A stretch of DNA of 64,000 nucleotides from an uncultured Ohtaekwangia sp. (GTDB taxonomy: Bacteria; Bacteroidota; Bacteroidia; Cytophagales; Cyclobacteriaceae): assembly GCA_964429845.1 (NCBI GenBank), contig CAYSCT010000012.1, positions 18,412-82,411 of the forward strand, in the 5' to 3' direction. The notes under the pieces were generated by a model. The model ran no database searches. It was not told the DNA's origin and saw only the letters and a program-made list of their open reading frames with translations. Made by a program: the position numbers and the translations under genes. Shown one piece after another: positions 16,582-46,714 of the stretch (the first letter of the stretch is position 1; every line of letters begins with the position of its first letter).

Positions 16582-19251
16582 TTGACCTACCGACCACTAC
16601 AACTCAGCGGTTTAGAAGCCGTAACCATTACCCCGAATTCCAACTTCGTGAATATTGGCGAACGAACCAACGTAACGGGTTCCGCTAAATTCCTGAAACT
16701 GATTAAAGAAGATAAGTTCGAAGAAGCTCTGGAGGTAGCGCTCGACCAGGTGCGCGGAGGCGCACAGGTGATAGACGTAAACATGGATGAGGGCATGCTG
16801 GATGCCAAAGCAGCCATGGTAAAATTTTTAAACCTGATGGCGTCTGAACCTGAGATAGCCTGTGTGCCGGTTATGGTCGATTCTTCTAAGTGGGAGGTGA
16901 TTGAAGCAGGATTGAAATGCCTGCAAGGCAAAGGCATTGTTAACTCTATCAGTTTGAAGGGGGGAGAAGAAGAGTTCATACGTCAGGCCAAACTGGTGAA
17001 GCGCTACGGTGCCGCCACGGTGGTGATGGCCTTTGATGAGCAGGGCCAGGCCGATACCTACGAACGAAGAATCGCGATCTGTAAGCGCGCCTATGATATT
17101 CTGGTGAACGTGGTGAAGTTTCCTCCGCAGGACATCATTTTCGATCCAAATATTTTCCCGGTAGCAACGGGCATTGAAGAGCATCGAAATTATGCGGTAG
17201 ACTTTTTCAGGGCGGCCAGGTGGATCAGAGAGAACCTTCCTTACGCACACGTGAGTGGTGGGGTTAGCAACGTGTCTTTCAGCTTCAGGGGCAACCAGAA
17301 AGTGCGTGAGGCCATGCATGCTGCTTTTCTATTCCACGCAATAAAAAACGGCATGGACATGGGCATCGTGAACCCTACCATGCTGGAGGTATACGATGAA
17401 ATACCCAAAGATTTGTTGGAACGTGTAGAAGATGTGCTGCTGAACAGGAGGGAAGACGCAACGGAGAGGTTATTAGAGTTTGCTGAAACGGTAAAAGGTG
17501 CAAGCAGGAAGAAAGAACTGGACGATGCGTGGCGAAATGATACCGTGGAGGAAAGATTGAAGCACGCATTGGTAAAGGGAATCATCGATTTCATCGATCA
17601 GGATACGGAAGAGGCGAGACAAAAATACGGGCGGCCGTTGCACGTGATTGAGGGCCCTCTGATGGCCGGTATGAACGTGGTGGGCGATTTGTTTGGTGCG
17701 GGAAAAATGTTTTTACCCCAGGTGGTGAAGAGCGCCCGCGTGATGAAAAAGTCCGTTGCCTACCTTACGCCTTTTCTGGAGGAAGAGAAACGCCTCAGTG
17801 GCACCAGTGGAAAGCCTGCGGCCAAAGTATTGATGGCCACGGTGAAAGGCGATGTGCACGACATCGGTAAAAACATTGTAGGCGTGGTGTTGGCGTGCAA
17901 CAATTACGACATTGTAGACCTGGGCGTGATGGTGCCCACAGAAAAAATCATTGAGGCCGCGAAAAGGGAAAAAGTAGATGCCGTAGGATTGAGCGGACTG
18001 ATCACGCCCTCGTTGGATGAGATGGTGCATGTGGCCAAAGAAATGCAACACGAGAAGATGGAGCTGCCTTTGCTGATTGGAGGTGCAACTACTTCACGCA
18101 TTCATACGGCCGTTAAAATCGACCCGGTGTACGATGGCCCCGTGGTGCATGTGCTGGACGCCTCGCGGTCGGTGCCCGTGGTGAGCGAGTTGATCAGTGC
18201 AGAGACACGTGCCGACTTCAAAAAAAGAACCAAGGAGGAGTATGCGCGTCTGCGTAAAGACCACGAGAGCAGGCAGCAGGAGAAAAACTATATCACACTG
18301 GAGGAAGCGCGAAAAAACCGAACCACCATCAACTGGAAGGACACCGTCTTCACCGCTCCCCAATTTACAGGTCGCAAGGAATTGGTTGACTTTCCGTTGG
18401 CCACGTTGCGTCCATACATCGATTGGACACCTTTCTTCCAGACCTGGATGCTGGCGGGGCGCTATCCCGGCATTTTCAATGATGCAGTGGTAGGCGTTGA
18501 GGCGAAAAAACTGTTTGACGATGCCAACCGCATGTTGGATGAAATCATTGCCAGCAAGAGCTTGCGCGCCAATGGCGTAGTGGCTTTCTATCCGGCCACC
18601 GCTGTGGGCGATGACGTAGCGTTGGCCCATGAACCTGCCGGCAAGGCATTTGCTGTCTTTCATTTCTTGCGACAGCAAAACAAAAAGGCACAAAACCTGC
18701 CCAACTTCTGTCTGGCTGATTTTGTGTCGCCCGAGGCAGGTAAGGACTACCTGGGCCTGTTTGCAGTAACGGCCGGAATTGGGTTGGAAAAGCTGGTGGA
18801 GAAATACAAAGCCCAACACGATGACTATTCTGAAATAATGGCCAAAGCGCTGGCCGACCGTTTGGCGGAGGCTTTTGCCGAGTGCCTGCACGAAAAGGTG
18901 CGCAAAGAGTGGTGGGGATATGCGGCTGATGAAAGCCTGAACAACGATTTGCTGATCGCTGAAAAGTACCAGGGTATTCGCCCGGCACCGGGTTACCCGG
19001 CCTGCCCTGATCACACAGAGAAAAAACTACTGTTCGAGTTGTTACAAGCCGATAAGGTGGGCATTACGCTTACCGAATCGTATGCCATGTACCCAGGAGC
19101 GGCAGTAAGTGGATTTTATTTCGCACATCCACAATCGAAGTACTTTGGATTAGGCAAGATTGAAAGAGACCAGGTGGCAGACTATGCGCAACGCAAAGGA
19201 TTGAGTGTGGAGGAAGTAGAAAGGTGGTTGGCACCGAATTTGGCATATTGA
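16582..19251 (+). CDS. metH: B12-dependent methionine synthase: pterin-binding, cobalamin-binding and activation domains
   Basis: [18 protein letters not shown] cobalamin motif, [12 protein letters not shown]; TTG start. Confidence 0.95.
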
Positions 19252-19685
19252 ATTTGAAAATTAGTTTGATTTGAGAATTTGAAAATGGTTAAGAGGTGAG
19301 GGATGATAAGGAAAATCTAATTGTTGAGTTAACTTTTCGGTTTTCACTTGCCTTGATTGAATATTGCGAGCAGTTGGAAGGGGCCAGAAAATTTGTTGTT
19401 GCACGTCAACTTCTGAGGTCGGGCACCTCAATTGGGGCGAACACCCGCGAAGCGCAAAATGCCGAAAGTAAAAATGACTTCATTCATAAATTTAAAATTG
19501 CAGCAAAAGAAGTGGACGAAACCGAGTATTGGTTAATGCTTTGTAAGGAATCTAAGTCTTATCCTGATTGTGATCACCTTCTGGAAGACATTAAAGTAAT
19601 ATCCCGCGTGATCTCAAAGATTATTGCCACATCTAAAGGTAACTAGCATTTTCAAATTAAGACATTTTCAAATCTTCAAATTTTC
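19251..19685. mobile_element. Putative four-helix-bundle insertion element with reiterated terminal inverted repeats
   Basis: AATTTGAAAAT occurs twice on the left (19251, 19276) and CATTTTCAAAT twice on the right (19647, 19663); the unit fills the gap from the metH stop to the metF ATG. Confidence 0.55.
19296..19646 (+). CDS. Four helix bundle protein (23S rRNA IVP-like, TIGR02436 family)
   Basis: QLLRSGTSIGAN, EAQNAESKNDFIHKFKIAAKE, ETEYWL. Confidence 0.92.
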   Translation: MRDDKENLIVELTFRFSLALIEYCEQLEGARKFVVARQLLRSGTSIGANTREAQNAESKNDFIHKFKIAAKEVDETEYWLMLCKESKSYPDCDHLLEDIKVISRVISKIIATSKGN

Positions 19686-26419: not shown

Positions 26420-26537
26420 AGAAATTTGAAAATTTGAAGATGGTATGATTTGAAAATGAGTGGTGAATCGATTCAGGAATGGAAACTGATATTTGCCTCA
26501 CGTCACAGCTTCATTCTACTGTTATTTCATTTTCCCA
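26420..26537. repeat. Intergenic spacer with the same TTTGAAAAT reiteration as the four-helix-bundle element, but no ORF
   Basis: AATTTGAAAAT at 26423, AATTTGAAGATG at 26431, ATTTGAAAATG at 26448. Confidence 0.55.
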
Positions 26538-42769: not shown

Positions 42770-45469
42770 TCAATTACCGATTAAGATGAAAGGCGCCCAA
42801 AAGTAGGGGTCTGCAAAGTGCTTTTCCTGAATCATCTTCTGTTTGGCTTTCTGAAGGGCTATTTTGTAATTACCACCTGGGTCGGCCAACAGAAATCGGT
42901 AAAAATCTGTCATCAATTGGGTAGTAGATTCATCGGCCACACTCCAGAACGATACCACCAGGTTTTTGGCACCTGCATAAACCAAAGCACGCGAAAGACC
43001 AATAACACCTTCTCCTTTCGATACCTTTCCCAAGCCGGTTTGGCAGGCAGATAATACAGCCAGATCTGCAGAGAGCGACAGATTGTAAATTTCTCCGGCA
43101 TATAAATTACCATCTTCATGGTTATCTGTATTAAGGAATATGCGCGACAGCTCCGGGTTACGTTCGTCTACAATGCCATGCGTTGCAAAGTGTAAATATT
43201 TATACTGACTAAGATCTGTTTGTTTGATGGTTGTTTCGCTTGCCTGGGTGTGCGTTACCACATCGCTTTGGTTTCCAAAGAGCAATGAAATGGTGTTTAC
43301 CTCTATTTCGCTTCCAGGTAAAAATCCAAGCCCATTGTTGTTGGTAAATTCCACCGGGGCACACAAGAAAATAGATTTTGAATTTTGCTTGCCTTGTACC
43401 TTGGCCTTTTGCAAAAGCAAACCTGCCGAGAATTCGTAGCTAATGCCATACCTGGTAGCCAGAAAAGACTGTGACGCAAAATCGCCTTTTACTTTTTTGA
43501 TAGGTAACGCTTCAAAGGGTAGCGTAGCCAAGCGGCCCGCAGGTAGTAACGTAACTTCTGTTATGCGGGCAGGTAATGGAGGCACCAGCAATTTACGAAG
43601 CCGATCGGCCGTTTGGCTATAGGCATCGAACGAACGGTAATACAGGCTGTTCATCCAACCTTTCGCCAATCGCTCGAAGTCGGTGGGGAGGGCGAGGTTG
43701 CGAATACGGAAAGCGTTTCCCGTAAGGATGAATTGATACAGCCGCCCGGTTTTTTCTGCTACAAAGTAACTTATAATGGCCTGCTGCTCCTTAAGGGAGC
43801 TTTGAAGTTCAGCGATGGTGGGGGCCGTTGAATTGAACTTCAGATTGTAGTAGTTCGGAAATTCACTTTCCAGCCTTTTAATAAAGTTGGCATAGTCAAT
43901 ATTCAGTTGAAAGAGGGTTTCTCGCAGGTATTTTTCTTCTTCCGCATTGGGTTTACCACTTAACTTCTGCGATAAGAAGGAAATGGCAGCCTTCAGATTT
44001 TTTTCTTCCTCCAACAAAGCTGCCGGTATCCCTGAAAAGGATTTGGCCTGTGTATCAGCTATTGATTCCTGCAATACAGCCGATTTACTTTTCTCGGCAA
44101 AATAAAAAGCTTCATTGATATACTTTCGTTTGTCTAAAACTACATCGGTGATCTCAAGCGCAATTCGGACACCATCTTCATATAGTTCTGTTGCAAGTTC
44201 CCCCAAGGATAATTTGTCACTTTCGTTTGAACTTTGGTGTCGTAGATTATCGATTAGTGTGTCGCAAGAATGAAGACATTTGATAGCGAACTTTAAATCA
44301 TTCAAACTTAGCGTCATAGTAGCATAGCGTATTTCTAAAGCTTTAGCCTTATAAAGAAAAGAATACATCAAAGCTCTTGCATTGTAATAGCCAGATGTTG
44401 CTGGATTAATTCTGCTGTCCATTGTATTGAAATTAGGGACATTAGCGATCATTGCCTTTTGATAACACATCATTGCACTATCAATATCATTCTTACTTAC
44501 ATAAACGTTGCCAAGTAAATTAAACGCATAAGCGAGATCCGGACTTTTGGTTCCAAAATGCATTGAATAGATATCGATAGCTTGTTGTATAAATTTAGTT
44601 GCTGATTGTGGTTTTTTGACACCGAGATACGATCTACCTAAGTTAGTAAGCACAATCGCTTGAGAGGGATGCGGATTGGGGTAAATAGATTCCCAAACTT
44701 TTAGTGCACGCTCAAAATGAATTATCGCATCTCCATAAAGGTTTTGTGACAGATATGCAATGCCAAGATTTGTATTAATAACAGCAATCTTCGGATGATC
44801 TTGACGATACAAAGAGGAATAGGCTCCTAACGCCATTTCATAATAATCAAGTGCCTTGTTGGCATCTATTTCTAAATAAGCGAGTCCCAAATCGTTATAA
44901 GAAGCTGCAATCAAACTCACATTATTTGGGGCTTTCTCTTTCCTTATTGCCAGCGCTAATTGTAGCTGTTCAACAGCTTTTGAATAGTTACCAACTACCA
45001 CCAAAGTATTCGCTAATAATGACAATGCATTTGCGGTCTCGAGACCATTTTCCTCTTTCATAAGGATAGGTATTGCCTCCTCTAAACTATCAAGTGCTAT
45101 ATCTGACCTACCTTTGTTCATGTTTAGGTAAGCAATAGTACATTTCAGAAGCGCTGTATTCAATTGCTTTTGATCAAGATTTGGAAGAAGACTTTTTAGG
45201 TTCTCAATTTGAATTTCAGCTTCATAAAGTAGCCCAAGTTGGATTAATGCAAGTGCTTTTTTATTATTCAAAAAGAATGTTAGCTCTCCATTTATTTGCT
45301 CAAATCTGTCAATCTCGGAGATCGCAAGTTCATATTTCGATTCAAAAAGTAATTGTTCAATGCGATCCAAGGCTTTCGTATGGTTGTTATCCTGTCCGTA
45401 AACTGCGTCCTTTGCTAGGAAACTAATCAAGAAAATTGCTACTAACTTTAAGATTCGTGGATAACTCAT
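42770..45469 (-). CDS. Exported TPR-CHAT (caspase-like, peptidase C14/CD clan) protease
   Basis: Signal peptide MSYPRILKLVAIFLISFLAKDAVYG-Q; kinesin-light-chain-type TPRs (HPKIAVINTNLG); CHAT dyad LHFATHG and LSACQTG intact. Confidence 0.92.
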   Translation of the reverse strand: MSYPRILKLVAIFLISFLAKDAVYGQDNNHTKALDRIEQLLFESKYELAISEIDRFEQINGELTFFLNNKKALALIQLGLLYEAEIQIENLKSLLPNLDQKQLNTALLKCTIAYLNMNKGRSDIALDSLEEAIPILMKEENGLETANALSLLANTLVVVGNYSKAVEQLQLALAIRKEKAPNNVSLIAASYNDLGLAYLEIDANKALDYYEMALGAYSSLYRQDHPKIAVINTNLGIAYLSQNLYGDAIIHFERALKVWESIYPNPHPSQAIVLTNLGRSYLGVKKPQSATKFIQQAIDIYSMHFGTKSPDLAYAFNLLGNVYVSKNDIDSAMMCYQKAMIANVPNFNTMDSRINPATSGYYNARALMYSFLYKAKALEIRYATMTLSLNDLKFAIKCLHSCDTLIDNLRHQSSNESDKLSLGELATELYEDGVRIALEITDVVLDKRKYINEAFYFAEKSKSAVLQESIADTQAKSFSGIPAALLEEEKNLKAAISFLSQKLSGKPNAEEEKYLRETLFQLNIDYANFIKRLESEFPNYYNLKFNSTAPTIAELQSSLKEQQAIISYFVAEKTGRLYQFILTGNAFRIRNLALPTDFERLAKGWMNSLYYRSFDAYSQTADRLRKLLVPPLPARITEVTLLPAGRLATLPFEALPIKKVKGDFASQSFLATRYGISYEFSAGLLLQKAKVQGKQNSKSIFLCAPVEFTNNNGLGFLPGSEIEVNTISLLFGNQSDVVTHTQASETTIKQTDLSQYKYLHFATHGIVDERNPELSRIFLNTDNHEDGNLYAGEIYNLSLSADLAVLSACQTGLGKVSKGEGVIGLSRALVYAGAKNLVVSFWSVADESTTQLMTDFYRFLLADPGGNYKIALQKAKQKMIQEKHFADPYFWAPFILIGN

Positions 45470-45541
45470 ATATCGATTGTGGGTTGTCAAATTACAAAAA
45501 TGCCTTAGTCAATAAATTTACTCATCTAAATTAATATTTGT

Positions 45542-45775
45542 ATGAAGATTTCTATTAGAACATTATTGCTGTCTGTGATGATTACGGCTGGTTATATAAC
45601 TACTGGTTGCGTTTGTAACTCCACAACCCGAACTGTTTATGGTGACAGTGGCGGTTGTAGTGACTCTGGGTATTGTACTCCGGGCGTGCCTACACCAATT
45701 TATCGAGAAACTACCACAGTATGTGAGGGCTGGTTTTCAACCACAACTTCTACTATTCGCGAGGAGATCAAATAG
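45542..45775 (+). CDS. 77-aa secreted or lipo-peptide, Cys/Thr-rich
   Basis: Basic n-region, hydrophobic h-region, TTG-C23 lipobox-like site; 5 Cys and 16 Thr; fills the whole gap between two genes. Confidence 0.7.
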   Translation: MKISIRTLLLSVMITAGYITTGCVCNSTTRTVYGDSGGCSDSGYCTPGVPTPIYRETTTVCEGWFSTTTSTIREEIK

Positions 45776-45784
45776 GCTCTATGG

Positions 45785-46714
45785 TCAGAATCGGTAAAAG
45801 TAGGTTACAGACGATACAAACTCGCGGGTAAGGCCATCGGGATTCACTTTGCGTTGAATGATTTTGTGGCCCAACAGTAGTTTAATTCCCGATTGTACAT
45901 TGAAGTTATAGCCCGTGGTAAAGATACCCGATAACGCCATCCCTTTGGCATCTGGAGACCTGGTAATAGAGCCATCTCCCTCTATGATTTGATCGCGTGT
46001 AATCCGGTAAATGGGCAACAATCCCAAAGAAAAATTGACACGCGAGAAGCGGAAGTTACGCTCTGCGCGCAGCATGACATCGGTGCCGCGCGTAAGCAGG
46101 TTGCCCTTGGGATATTTTTCGATATAGGCCATGTCTTGATCGCTGCCAGTCCAGCGGCTCCACAAAAACTGATTGTTGTTCTGGTTAAGCGGCACCTGTA
46201 TGCCCGTGGCGAACAACCACTTCCGGTTAATGAGCGACAGACCCGCGATGGCATCGTACGTGCCCAGGCTGGTTTGGTAATACATGGGCAGGGGGAACCC
46301 GTCAATGTCTTTGTCGGAATTGTTGGTTGGGATTTTGCCACCCAACGAGAGGTTCAAGTCAAATTGGTCGGACGTGAAGATATTGCGTGTAAAGCAGATG
46401 GAAATATCACCCATGCCAGAAGTGTTGGCTAAAGTTCCTGTAACAGCCTGATAGGGTAACTTGAGTTGGAATGTGTTACGACTGTTAAGGGAGAAGTTCA
46501 TATCTGCGGTGGCCACATAAATGATGGGTGTAAGGCTGGTGGTGCCCCTGTACAAGTTTAACTCCATCGAACGCAGCTTGACGGCTATTTTTTTGTTATA
46601 GGGCTGGTCGGGTTTCATGGCACCCATGGTGCAGAAGCCCGCATCGCTACAGCCTTGTGTCCAACCGAAGTGTGTTGCGAGGCAGAGCATCGAACACACG
46701 AGTATTTTCTTCAT
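45785..46714 (-). CDS. Conserved Bacteroidota outer-membrane beta-barrel with N-terminal CSDAGFC motif
   Basis: Signal peptide then Q-GCSDAGFCT; YQTSLGTYD; C-terminal TYFYRF beta-signal. Confidence 0.75.
   Translation of the reverse strand: MKKILVCSMLCLATHFGWTQGCSDAGFCTMGAMKPDQPYNKKIAVKLRSMELNLYRGTTSLTPIIYVATADMNFSLNSRNTFQLKLPYQAVTGTLANTSGMGDISICFTRNIFTSDQFDLNLSLGGKIPTNNSDKDIDGFPLPMYYQTSLGTYDAIAGLSLINRKWLFATGIQVPLNQNNNQFLWSRWTGSDQDMAYIEKYPKGNLLTRGTDVMLRAERNFRFSRVNFSLGLLPIYRITRDQIIEGDGSITRSPDAKGMALSGIFTTGYNFNVQSGIKLLLGHKIIQRKVNPDGLTREFVSSVTYFYRF

What the first reader, a model, noticed from the sequence alone, without database searches (positions are those of the whole stretch)
45542..45775. 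Divergent 77-aa Cys/Thr-rich secreted peptide next to the TPR-CHAT gene
Seen: it starts head-to-head 72 bp from the likely protease ATG, across an AT-rich spacer. It has a signal peptide with a lipobox-like G-C23 and four more Cys (25, 39, 45, 61) that could form nested disulfides 25-61 and 39-45. Thr-rich strands flank a central loop. Inference: a cognate ligand, inhibitor or substrate of the exported protease, forming a receptor-peptide pair that co-varies with the TPR half.
Basis: partly seen in the sequence, partly recalled or inferred. Interest (0 to 1): 0.75.

Follow-up and report, generated by a model that had tools for sequence, protein, structure and literature searches.

The report
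Rare mini-lipoprotein copying neighbouring barrel's loop
The 77-codon reading frame is a real but extremely rare gene for a small exported, disulfide-bonded protein; it copies the invariant N-terminal loop of the neighbouring outer-membrane channel and entered this genome on a 1.7 kb foreign DNA piece that also replaced half of the adjacent envelope protease gene.

Summary
ORF 45542-45775 (+) encodes 77 aa with an export signal and Cys 23, 25, 39, 45 and 61. It starts 72 bp from the TPR-CHAT ATG at 45469.

It is a real gene. One homologue exists among 1.84 billion representative proteins (82 aa, 51% identity, all five Cys kept). The pair shows purifying selection (pN 0.32, pS 0.65, omega about 0.27). 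That homologue also lies convergent with a barrel gene's 3' end.

It is not a general partner of TPR-CHAT proteases:
- About 25 orthologous loci across Cytophagales, including relatives about 93% identical in flanking DNA, have the barrel stop abutting the CHAT start (-1 to +12 bp) and no such ORF.
- About 1260 Bacteroidota genomes and pattern scans of GTDB genomes gave no third member.

Here the ORF sits in a low-GC cassette (44120-45784, GC 0.37 against 0.50 genome-wide). The cassette also replaced the TPR half of the protease (39% identity to relatives, against 86-90% for the CHAT half).

Residues 38-48 (GCSDSGYCTPG) copy the invariant mature N-terminus (QGCSDAGFCTMG) of the adjacent 12-stranded FapF/COG4313-like barrel, which is the plug position in the solved analogues.

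Best reading, inferred and not shown: a periplasmic mimic of that loop.

The parts
45542..45775 (+). Small ORF, 77 aa plus stop (P0001). It is an exported, probably lipid-anchored mini-protein with 5 Cys.
   Evidence: Searches give the sequence. One search finds the homologue P0244 (51% identity, E 3e-14). One search gives omega about 0.27, and 21 of 40 identical residues use different codons. One search gives a three-stranded model.
45542..45607 (+). Signal peptide (aa 1-22), ending in the lipobox-like I-T-T-G before Cys23.
   Evidence: Read directly from the sequence. The homologue has MKKIERR plus a hydrophobic core and VFNG-C. There is no Gln after the cleavage site, unlike the signal-peptidase-I substrates next door, which follow the Bacteroidetes Q-rule (PMC5837995).
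45653..45685 (+). Cys-loop motif GCSDSGYCTPG (aa 38-48), a copy of the barrel's N-terminal loop.
   Evidence: An HMM of the barrel N-terminus scores P0001 at 16.0 bits and P0244 at 16.7 bits. The best of 5000 shuffles of each scored 7.0 and 11.1. Barrel N-termini in many genomes were hit by residues 36-52.
45470..45541 (.). 72-bp AT-rich spacer (GC 0.25) between the divergent starts. It is the presumed promoter region for both genes.
   Evidence: There are only near-matches (one mismatch) to the Bacteroidetes -7 box TAnnTTTG, e.g. TAAATTTA at 45513-45520. No sigma-70 site was found. Function is not shown.
44120..45784 (.). Imported low-GC cassette comprising the TPR half of the protease gene, the spacer and the small ORF.
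   Evidence: Nucleotide identity to relative L022 is about 93% in the flanks. It collapses exactly at the barrel stop (45785) and recovers near 44120. GC is 0.371, in the lowest 0.4% of genome windows. TPR half 39% against CHAT half 86-90% amino-acid identity.
42770..45469 (-). Signal-peptide TPR-CHAT caspase-fold protease gene (899 aa from the ATG). It is a mosaic.
   Evidence: Pfam CHAT E 5e-62 plus TPR families. His/Cys contexts HFATHG and LSACQTG are present. Family-invariant TPR residues are retained.
45785..46714 (-). 12-stranded outer-membrane barrel (309 aa, P0003). It is convergent with the small ORF, with 9 bp between the stop codons.
   Evidence: More than 2600 homologues and no Pfam family. 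AF2 model pLDDT 72. Foldseek top hits are FapF and COG4313 Pput2725 (E 1e-10, TM 0.6-0.7).
46601..46657 (-). Invariant mature N-terminus of the barrel, QGCSDAGFCTMGAMKPDQP (aa 20-38). This is the plug position in the structural analogues.
   Evidence: Identical in 120 of 121 family members and invariant in alignment A3. The segment is unresolved in the AF2 model (pLDDT below 50). The N-terminal segment occludes the lumen in Pput2725 (PMC4493636) and FapF (PMC5557850).

Best explanation
Shown:
- The ORF is a real, very rare protein-coding gene with two known members.
- It encodes a mini-protein of about 54 mature residues with an export signal, and all five Cys are conserved.
- Its central loop copies the invariant mature N-terminus of the neighbouring FapF/COG4313-like outer-membrane barrel.
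- It lies in a 1.7 kb low-GC cassette. The cassette replaced the segment between the barrel's 3' end and the middle of the TPR-CHAT gene, so it broke an otherwise order-wide translational coupling of barrel and protease.

Inferred:
- The cassette came in by homologous recombination from a low-GC lineage like that of metagenome contig L029, using the conserved barrel 3' end and the conserved CHAT-half sequence as anchors.
- The mature protein is probably lipid-anchored at Cys23 and disulfide-bonded 39-45 and 25-61.
- It sits in the periplasm and acts as a trans mimic of the barrel's N-terminal 'plug/handle' loop. It would compete for whatever binds that loop: the TPR array of the periplasmic CHAT protease or the barrel lumen. 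That would modulate gating or proteolysis in this envelope machine.
- It may have originated from a partial duplicate of a barrel gene's 5' end.
For: Real gene: homologue P0244 (E 3e-14, 51% identity, five Cys conserved). pN is 0.32-0.36 against pS 0.65-0.75.

Same position in a second lineage: in L029 the small ORF is convergent with a barrel C-terminus, and a signal-peptide-like ORF starts divergently 118 bp upstream.

Loop copy: 16-17 bits against an HMM of the barrel N-terminus, with 0 of 5000 shuffles reaching that score. P0244's GCADNGYCTMGA matches 9 of 12 residues, plus the conservative Y/F.

Loop importance: invariant in 120 of 121 barrels.

Barrel fold: FapF/COG4313. In both solved analogues the N-terminal segment plugs the lumen, and FapF works with a periplasmic Cys protease, FapD (PMC4493636, PMC5557850).

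Import: identity breakpoints, GC 0.371 against 0.497, TPR half 39% against CHAT half 86-90%. Relatives have TGATG stop/start overlap and no ORF.

Shared compartment: the barrel and the protease both carry signal peptides that expose Gln (Q-rule), and the small protein has a Cys at +1.
Against:
- Only two family members are known, and the second sits on a 637-bp contig, so co-occurrence with a CHAT gene there is not proven.
- About 25 orthologous barrel/CHAT loci work without this gene, so it is at most an optional accessory.
- Co-transfer with the TPR half is expected from linkage alone.
- The barrel's N-terminal segment is unresolved in the model, so 'plug' is an analogy.
- The shared motif is only about 11-12 residues long.
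- The homologue's lipobox (VFNG-C) is atypical.
- No interaction modelling was possible.
Confidence: 0.4

Rival explanations
1. Hitch-hiking small lipoprotein. It is a real exported protein whose function is unrelated to the barrel or the protease. It sits there only because it was carried between the two recombination anchors, and the loop resemblance merely reflects its origin from a duplicated barrel 5' end.
For: It is absent from about 25 orthologous loci and about 1260 genomes. The similarity is confined to about 12 residues. Linkage explains the co-transfer.
Against: The loop residues are the best-conserved part between the two members despite saturated synonymous sites. Both members keep the same position beside the barrel.
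Confidence: 0.25
2. Cargo or substrate. The mini-protein is secreted through the FapF-like barrel and/or processed by the CHAT protease, as Fap subunits pass through FapF with the help of FapD.
For: The barrel has the fold of a polypeptide transporter. FapD protease activity is required for secretion through FapF. The protein is small, Thr-rich and beta-stranded.
Against: It has a lipobox-like Cys and two probable disulfides, so it is a folded, anchored protein rather than an unfolded cargo. It has no amyloid-type repeats. Almost all barrel/CHAT pairs lack it, so their cargo must lie elsewhere.
Confidence: 0.15
3. Dedicated protease inhibitor or immunity protein for the imported TPR-CHAT variant, comparable to periplasmic protease inhibitors such as ecotin.
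For: It is divergently paired with the protease start across a 72-bp spacer. It was co-imported with the TPR half. It would share a compartment with the protease.
Against: The catalytic CHAT half was not imported (86-90% identity to relatives), so no new catalytic specificity needs a new inhibitor. Fold search gave no significant match; the cystatin hits at E 0.2 include the signal helix.
Confidence: 0.12
4. Not a functional gene: a chance or decaying ORF in an imported spacer, or a locus that acts only through antisense transcription into the barrel gene.
For: It is an orphan in a word-indexed search of 5.8 billion proteins. No terminator lies between the convergent stops, which are 9 bp apart. 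There is no expression evidence.
Against: A homologue exists with conserved Cys and omega about 0.27. No Rfam match was found. A 77-codon open frame is itself unlikely in AT-rich sequence.
Confidence: 0.08

Closest known systems
Pseudomonas Fap system: FapF outer-membrane channel plus FapD periplasmic cysteine protease (PMC5557850)
   Same: [quoted passage not shown] It is encoded next to an exported cysteine protease. Small exported proteins are encoded in the same locus.
   Different: The protease is a TPR-CHAT caspase-fold enzyme, not C39. The barrel has no coiled-coil extension and only about 13% identity. There are no FapB/FapC-type amyloid repeat proteins. The small protein is Cys-bonded and lipobox-bearing. 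The plug is a Cys loop rather than a helix, and its plug role is not resolved here.
COG4313 channels (Pput2725, PDB 4RL8; PMC4493636)
   Same: A monomer-size 12-stranded barrel of about 290 mature residues, in which the N-terminal 14 or so residues fold into the lumen. Foldseek E 8e-10.
   Different: No Pfam or sequence match even at E 10. COG4313 proteins are linked to uptake of hydrophobic compounds, not to a coupled protease. They have no Cys loop.
Exported TPR-CHAT plus FapF-like barrel cassettes of Bacteroidota noted elsewhere in this scan (e1-4911582, e1-4761499, e1-4179805, e1-4060518)
   Same: The same pairing of a signal-peptide TPR-CHAT protein with a barrel carrying the CSDAGFC N-terminus.
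   Different: Those notes, as far as shown, mention no antisense mini-lipoprotein wedged between barrel and protease and no swapped TPR half. They are unpublished AI notes, not an established family.
Small periplasmic protease inhibitors (ecotin, cystatin-like folds)
   Same: A small exported protein encoded beside a protease.
   Different: There is no sequence or significant fold similarity. The catalytic half of the protease was not co-imported.

Membership tests
Bacterial lipoproteins (signal peptidase II substrates) | A basic n-region and hydrophobic core, followed by a lipobox [LVI][ASTVI][GAS]-C with Cys at +1. | tested here: inconclusive
   P0001 has MKISIR, a 13-residue core and I-T-T-G-C23, which fits a relaxed lipobox. 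The homologue has V-F-N-G-C, with an atypical Asn at -2. No dedicated predictor was available.
Fap-type secretion system | FapF-like 12-stranded barrel. | tested here: met
   Foldseek top 20 hits are FapF and COG4313, E 1.7e-10 to 8e-9, TM 0.55-0.73. The model has 12 strands.
Fap-type secretion system | Periplasmic C39 cysteine peptidase (FapD). | tested here: not met
   The neighbouring protease is CHAT (PF12770, E 5e-62), not C39.
Fap-type secretion system | Amyloid subunits with imperfect repeats (FapB/FapC), and an N-terminal coiled coil on the channel. | tested here: not met
   The small protein has no repeats. The barrel has only about 25 residues before strand 1. The conserved neighbours are M23, a CinA-like protein, TrhO and Pcm.
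COG4313 / PF13557 (MetA-pathway of phenol degradation) channels | Sequence match to the family model. | tested here: not met
   There was no Pfam hit for P0003 even at E 10. Only two source names in the protein database use that label.
COG4313 / FapF | N-terminal segment occluding the barrel lumen. | tested here: inconclusive
   Residues 14-43 of the model have pLDDT below 50. The position before strand 1 and the absolute conservation fit a plug but do not show one.
CHAT domain proteases (PF12770) | CHAT domain with the His/Cys catalytic dyad. | tested here: met
   E 5.3e-62. HFATHG and LSACQTG are present, and both are invariant in a 56-sequence alignment.
RiPP precursor peptides (Cys/Thr-rich core with leader) | Cytoplasmic precursor next to a modifying enzyme (LanB/LanM, radical SAM, YcaO, ATP-grasp). 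| tested here: not met
   The peptide carries a Sec-type signal. The neighbours are a barrel, CHAT, M23, TrhO and housekeeping Pcm (NF001453, 226 bits, above the 188 cut-off). There is no maturase.
Cystatin-like inhibitors | Significant fold match. | tested here: not met
   The best Foldseek E-value is 0.21, and the aligned helix is the signal peptide.

The most novel reading that the evidence does not exclude
The invariant Cys loop at the barrel's N-terminus is the handle or gate through which the periplasmic TPR-CHAT protease operates a FapF-like envelope channel. This orphan lipoprotein would then be a trans-acting mimic of that handle, travelling with a matching TPR receptor half as a portable receptor-ligand cassette exchanged between distant Cytophagales by homologous recombination.
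Probability: 0.2. Interest if true: 0.75.

Novelty: new variant of a known kind. Interest (0 to 1): 0.5.

Why it matters
Exported caspase-fold (CHAT) proteases coupled to FapF-like barrels are widespread in Bacteroidota, and I found no description of them in the literature searched. The barrel family has more than 2600 members, and neither their substrate nor their gating is known.

This locus is a natural experiment. One lineage has acquired a small protein that carries a copy of the barrel's most conserved element, together with a foreign TPR half.

If the mimic idea holds, the peptide gives a direct handle for three questions:
- What the TPR array recognises, testable by pull-downs with the loop peptide.
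- Whether the N-terminal loop is a plug.
- Whether the protease acts on that loop.

Even if the idea fails, the locus documents two things. One is the birth or acquisition of a selected orphan gene inside a formerly overlapping gene junction. The other is domain-level allele replacement within a protease gene.

Tried and rejected
Searches for more family members:
- The word-indexed search of 5.8 billion proteins returned only the query.
- The JGI metagenome scan gave two chance hits, in eukaryote-like acidic proteins carrying GCSDNGYC.
- Two GTDB genome scans gave only chance matches.
- HMM searches of about 1260 Bacteroidota genomes hit only barrel N-termini.
- Weak hits to 70-104-aa frames in L007, L009, L013, L016 and L017 were checked and were barrel N-termini or noise.

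Mobile element: there are no terminal repeats and no other copy in the genome.

Barrel 3' remnant on the protease strand of the spacer: all three frames are full of stops.

RNA element: no Rfam match.

Promoters and terminators: there is no sigma-70 promoter or intrinsic terminator in the spacer. Bacteroidetes -7 boxes appear only as one-mismatch matches.

Domain and structure searches:
- Pfam and NCBIfam gave no hits for the peptide or the barrel.
- A PDB sequence search with the barrel profile found nothing meaningful.
- The fold search with the peptide model was not significant.

RiPP precursor idea: rejected, because the peptide has a Sec signal and there is no maturase nearby.

Full report
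**1. The observation**

The + strand ORF at 45542-45775 exists as described. It runs from ATG to TAG and encodes 77 aa: MKISIRTLLLSVMITAGYITTGCVCNSTTRTVYGDSGGCSDSGYCTPGVPTPIYRETTTVCEGWFSTTTSTIREEIK. Cys lie at 23, 25, 39, 45 and 61.

The minus-strand gene to its left is a signal-peptide TPR-CHAT protein (Pfam CHAT E 5e-62 plus TPR families). Its first ATG is at 45469, 72 bp from the ORF's ATG. A database gene call uses the TTG at 45490 instead. The spacer has GC 0.25.

An AlphaFold2 model built from the only two family sequences (pLDDT 72) shows three strands (24-33, 53-62, 67-75) around a loop at 34-52.

**2. Is it a gene?**

A word-indexed search of 5.8 billion proteins found only the query. 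An exhaustive phmmer scan of 1.84 billion cluster representatives found one true relative, P0244 (82 aa, 51% identity, E 3e-14). The relative keeps the following:
- the signal peptide;
- all five Cys;
- the block GC-x-CNS-x-T-x-x-VYG;
- the loop GGC-x-D-x-GYCT-x-G;
- the motif YET-x-T-x-CEGWF.

Codon-level comparison gives pN 0.32-0.36 against pS 0.65-0.75, which is saturated. For the mature part omega is about 0.27, and 21 of 40 identical residues use different codons.

There is no Rfam match, no sigma-70 promoter in the spacer and no terminator. Bacteroidetes-type -7 boxes occur only as one-mismatch matches.

**3. Context in relatives**

The right-hand neighbour (45785-46714, minus strand) is a 309-aa protein. 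It belongs to a very large family with no Pfam model (more than 2600 hits).

Two close relatives were examined, L022 (GCA_049324055.1) and L025 (GCA_964602295.1). Both keep the same gene order: TrhO, CinA-like, M23, barrel, TPR-CHAT, Pcm, thrC. In both, the barrel stop overlaps the CHAT start (TGATG), with no spacer and no small ORF.

More distant genomes (L026, L027) and about 20 further loci from genus to order level show the same tight junction, -1 to +12 bp. The barrel/TPR-CHAT pair is therefore the conserved unit, and the 315-bp insert with an opposite-strand gene is the exception.

HMM searches of about 1260 Bacteroidota genomes and pattern scans of GTDB genomes and JGI metagenomes produced no third member.

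**4. How it got here**

The window is about 93% identical to L022 in nucleotide sequence across the flanks. Identity collapses exactly at the barrel stop codon (45785), stays unalignable or at 30-55% down to about 44120, and then recovers.

| Region | Window vs close relatives (amino-acid identity) | L022 vs L025 |
|---|---|---|
| TPR half of the protease | 39% | 84% |
| CHAT half of the protease | 86-90% | 85% |
| Barrel | 91-93% | 93% |

The 39% figure is no closer than inter-family comparisons, which give 44-46%. No database protein is closer than 47% to this TPR half.

The segment 44120-45784 has GC 0.371 against a genome mean of 0.497, which places it in the lowest 0.4% of equal-sized windows. 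GC3 of the TPR half is 0.30 against 0.62 for the barrel. There are no terminal repeats and no second copy in the genome.

The simplest account is allelic replacement by homologous recombination with DNA from a distant low-GC lineage, anchored in the conserved barrel 3' end and the highly conserved start of the CHAT half (FYFAEKSKSAVLQESIADTQAKSF...). The imported TPR half keeps the family-invariant TPR residues, so it is a functional allele and not debris.

**5. The second member supports a donor-like architecture**

P0244 lies on a 637-bp metagenome contig, L029 (GC 0.32). Its layout is as follows:
- Downstream and convergent is the C-terminus of a barrel-family gene (...NPDGLTRHFVSSFTYNYLFRT*).
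- Upstream by 118 bp, a divergent ORF begins MQKNFIVGLLLLFC, which looks like a signal peptide, as the CHAT proteins' N-termini do.

The arrangement barrel <- -> small ORF, with a divergent exported gene upstream, therefore exists in another low-GC lineage. Whether that upstream gene is a TPR-CHAT cannot be told from 14 residues.

**6. The loop**

Residues 38-48 of the peptide (GCSDSGYCTPG) resemble the barrel's mature N-terminus, QGCSDAGFCTMGAMKPDQP. In P0244 the loop is GCADNGYCTMGA, which matches 9 of 12 residues plus the conservative Y/F. The barrel sequence is identical in 120 of 121 family members sampled.

An HMM of that N-terminus scores the two peptides at 16.0 and 16.7 bits. The best of 5000 composition-preserving shuffles of each reached 7.0 and 11.1. 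Genome searches with the peptide repeatedly hit barrel N-termini. In one barrel (L004) the similarity extends into the end of the signal peptide (YHAGAQGCSDAGFCTMGA against YGAGSGGCADNGYCTMGA). This hints that the small gene arose from a duplicated barrel 5' end.

**7. What the barrel is**

The AF2 model (pLDDT 72) is a 12-stranded barrel. Its N-terminal residues 14-43 are unresolved. Foldseek's top hits are FapF, the Pseudomonas amyloid exporter, and the COG4313 channel Pput2725 (E 1e-10 to 1e-9, TM 0.55-0.73).

In both solved structures the segment before strand 1 occludes the lumen. FapF also needs the periplasmic cysteine protease FapD, whose target may be FapE or FapF itself (PMC5557850, PMC4493636).

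The Cytophagales pair therefore resembles FapF plus FapD in layout. It fails membership on three counts: the protease is CHAT rather than C39, the barrel has no coiled coil, and there are no amyloid subunits.

The barrel and the protease both expose Gln after signal cleavage, following the Bacteroidetes Q-rule (PMC5837995). The small protein instead has Cys at +1, consistent with a lipoprotein.

**8. Mechanism**

Shown:
- A selected, exported mini-protein gene.
- A copy of the barrel's invariant loop within it.
- Import on a cassette that also swapped the TPR half.

Inferred, at about 0.35-0.4: the mature protein is lipid-anchored at Cys23 and disulfide-bonded 39-45 and 25-61. It presents the loop in the periplasm and competes with the barrel's own N-terminus for its partner, which would be the TPR array or the barrel lumen. 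This would tune gating or proteolysis.

Rivals:
- An unrelated hitch-hiking lipoprotein (0.25).
- Cargo or substrate of the channel and protease (0.15).
- A dedicated inhibitor (0.12).
- A non-functional or antisense-only ORF (0.08).

Co-transfer with the TPR half cannot be counted as co-variation. The ORF lies between the recombination anchors, so linkage suffices to explain it.

**9. Verdict**

The gene is not a general partner of TPR-CHAT proteases. It is a rare, lineage-restricted accessory wedged into a conserved, undescribed envelope pair.

Earlier scan notes had independently flagged three of these points: the loop repeat, the chimeric protease, and FapF-like barrel/TPR-CHAT cassettes in other genomes. 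I re-derived the first two points with tools here, and for the third I re-derived the barrel/TPR-CHAT pairing and the FapF-like fold, not those notes' own loci.

Noticed in passing
window 42770-46714, and loci L022, L025, L026, L027, L003-L042: A 12-stranded FapF/COG4313-like barrel with the invariant mature N-terminus QGCSDAGFCTMGAMKPDQP is translationally coupled (-1 to +12 bp) to a signal-peptide TPR-CHAT protease across Cytophagales. The pair sits in a conserved row: TrhO, CinA-like, M23, barrel, CHAT, Pcm. The barrel family has more than 2600 members and no Pfam model.
   Followed up: partly
window 42970-44120: The CHAT half of the protease gene is itself a mosaic. This stretch is closer to relative L025 (0.80-0.89 nucleotide identity) than to L022 (0.63-0.88). 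The flanks are the other way round (0.92-0.98 to L022), which suggests repeated recombination in this gene.
   Followed up: partly
L010 and L012 (same-genus genomes G020, G001): A second barrel paralogue with the loop GCSDSGFCT lies in tandem upstream of the GCSDAGFCT barrel. The window genome has only one barrel with this motif.
   Followed up: no
window 45776-45784: Only 9 bp separate the convergent stop codons of the small ORF and the barrel gene, and no terminator is predicted. Transcripts of the two genes should overlap, and read-through from the barrel towards the protease would be antisense to the small gene.
   Followed up: no
window 19251-19685 and 26420-26537: Earlier first-reader notes (e1-5234049, e1-5234050) describe another small ORF that fills a gene junction exactly from a stop codon to a start codon, flanked by inverted repeats. 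I did not examine it, but it may reflect a wider tendency for small genes to be inserted at tight junctions in this genome.
   Followed up: no
L030 and L031 (JGI metagenome contigs): Eukaryote-like acidic or low-complexity proteins carry GCSDNGYC by chance. This shows that the 8-residue core alone is not diagnostic.
   Followed up: yes
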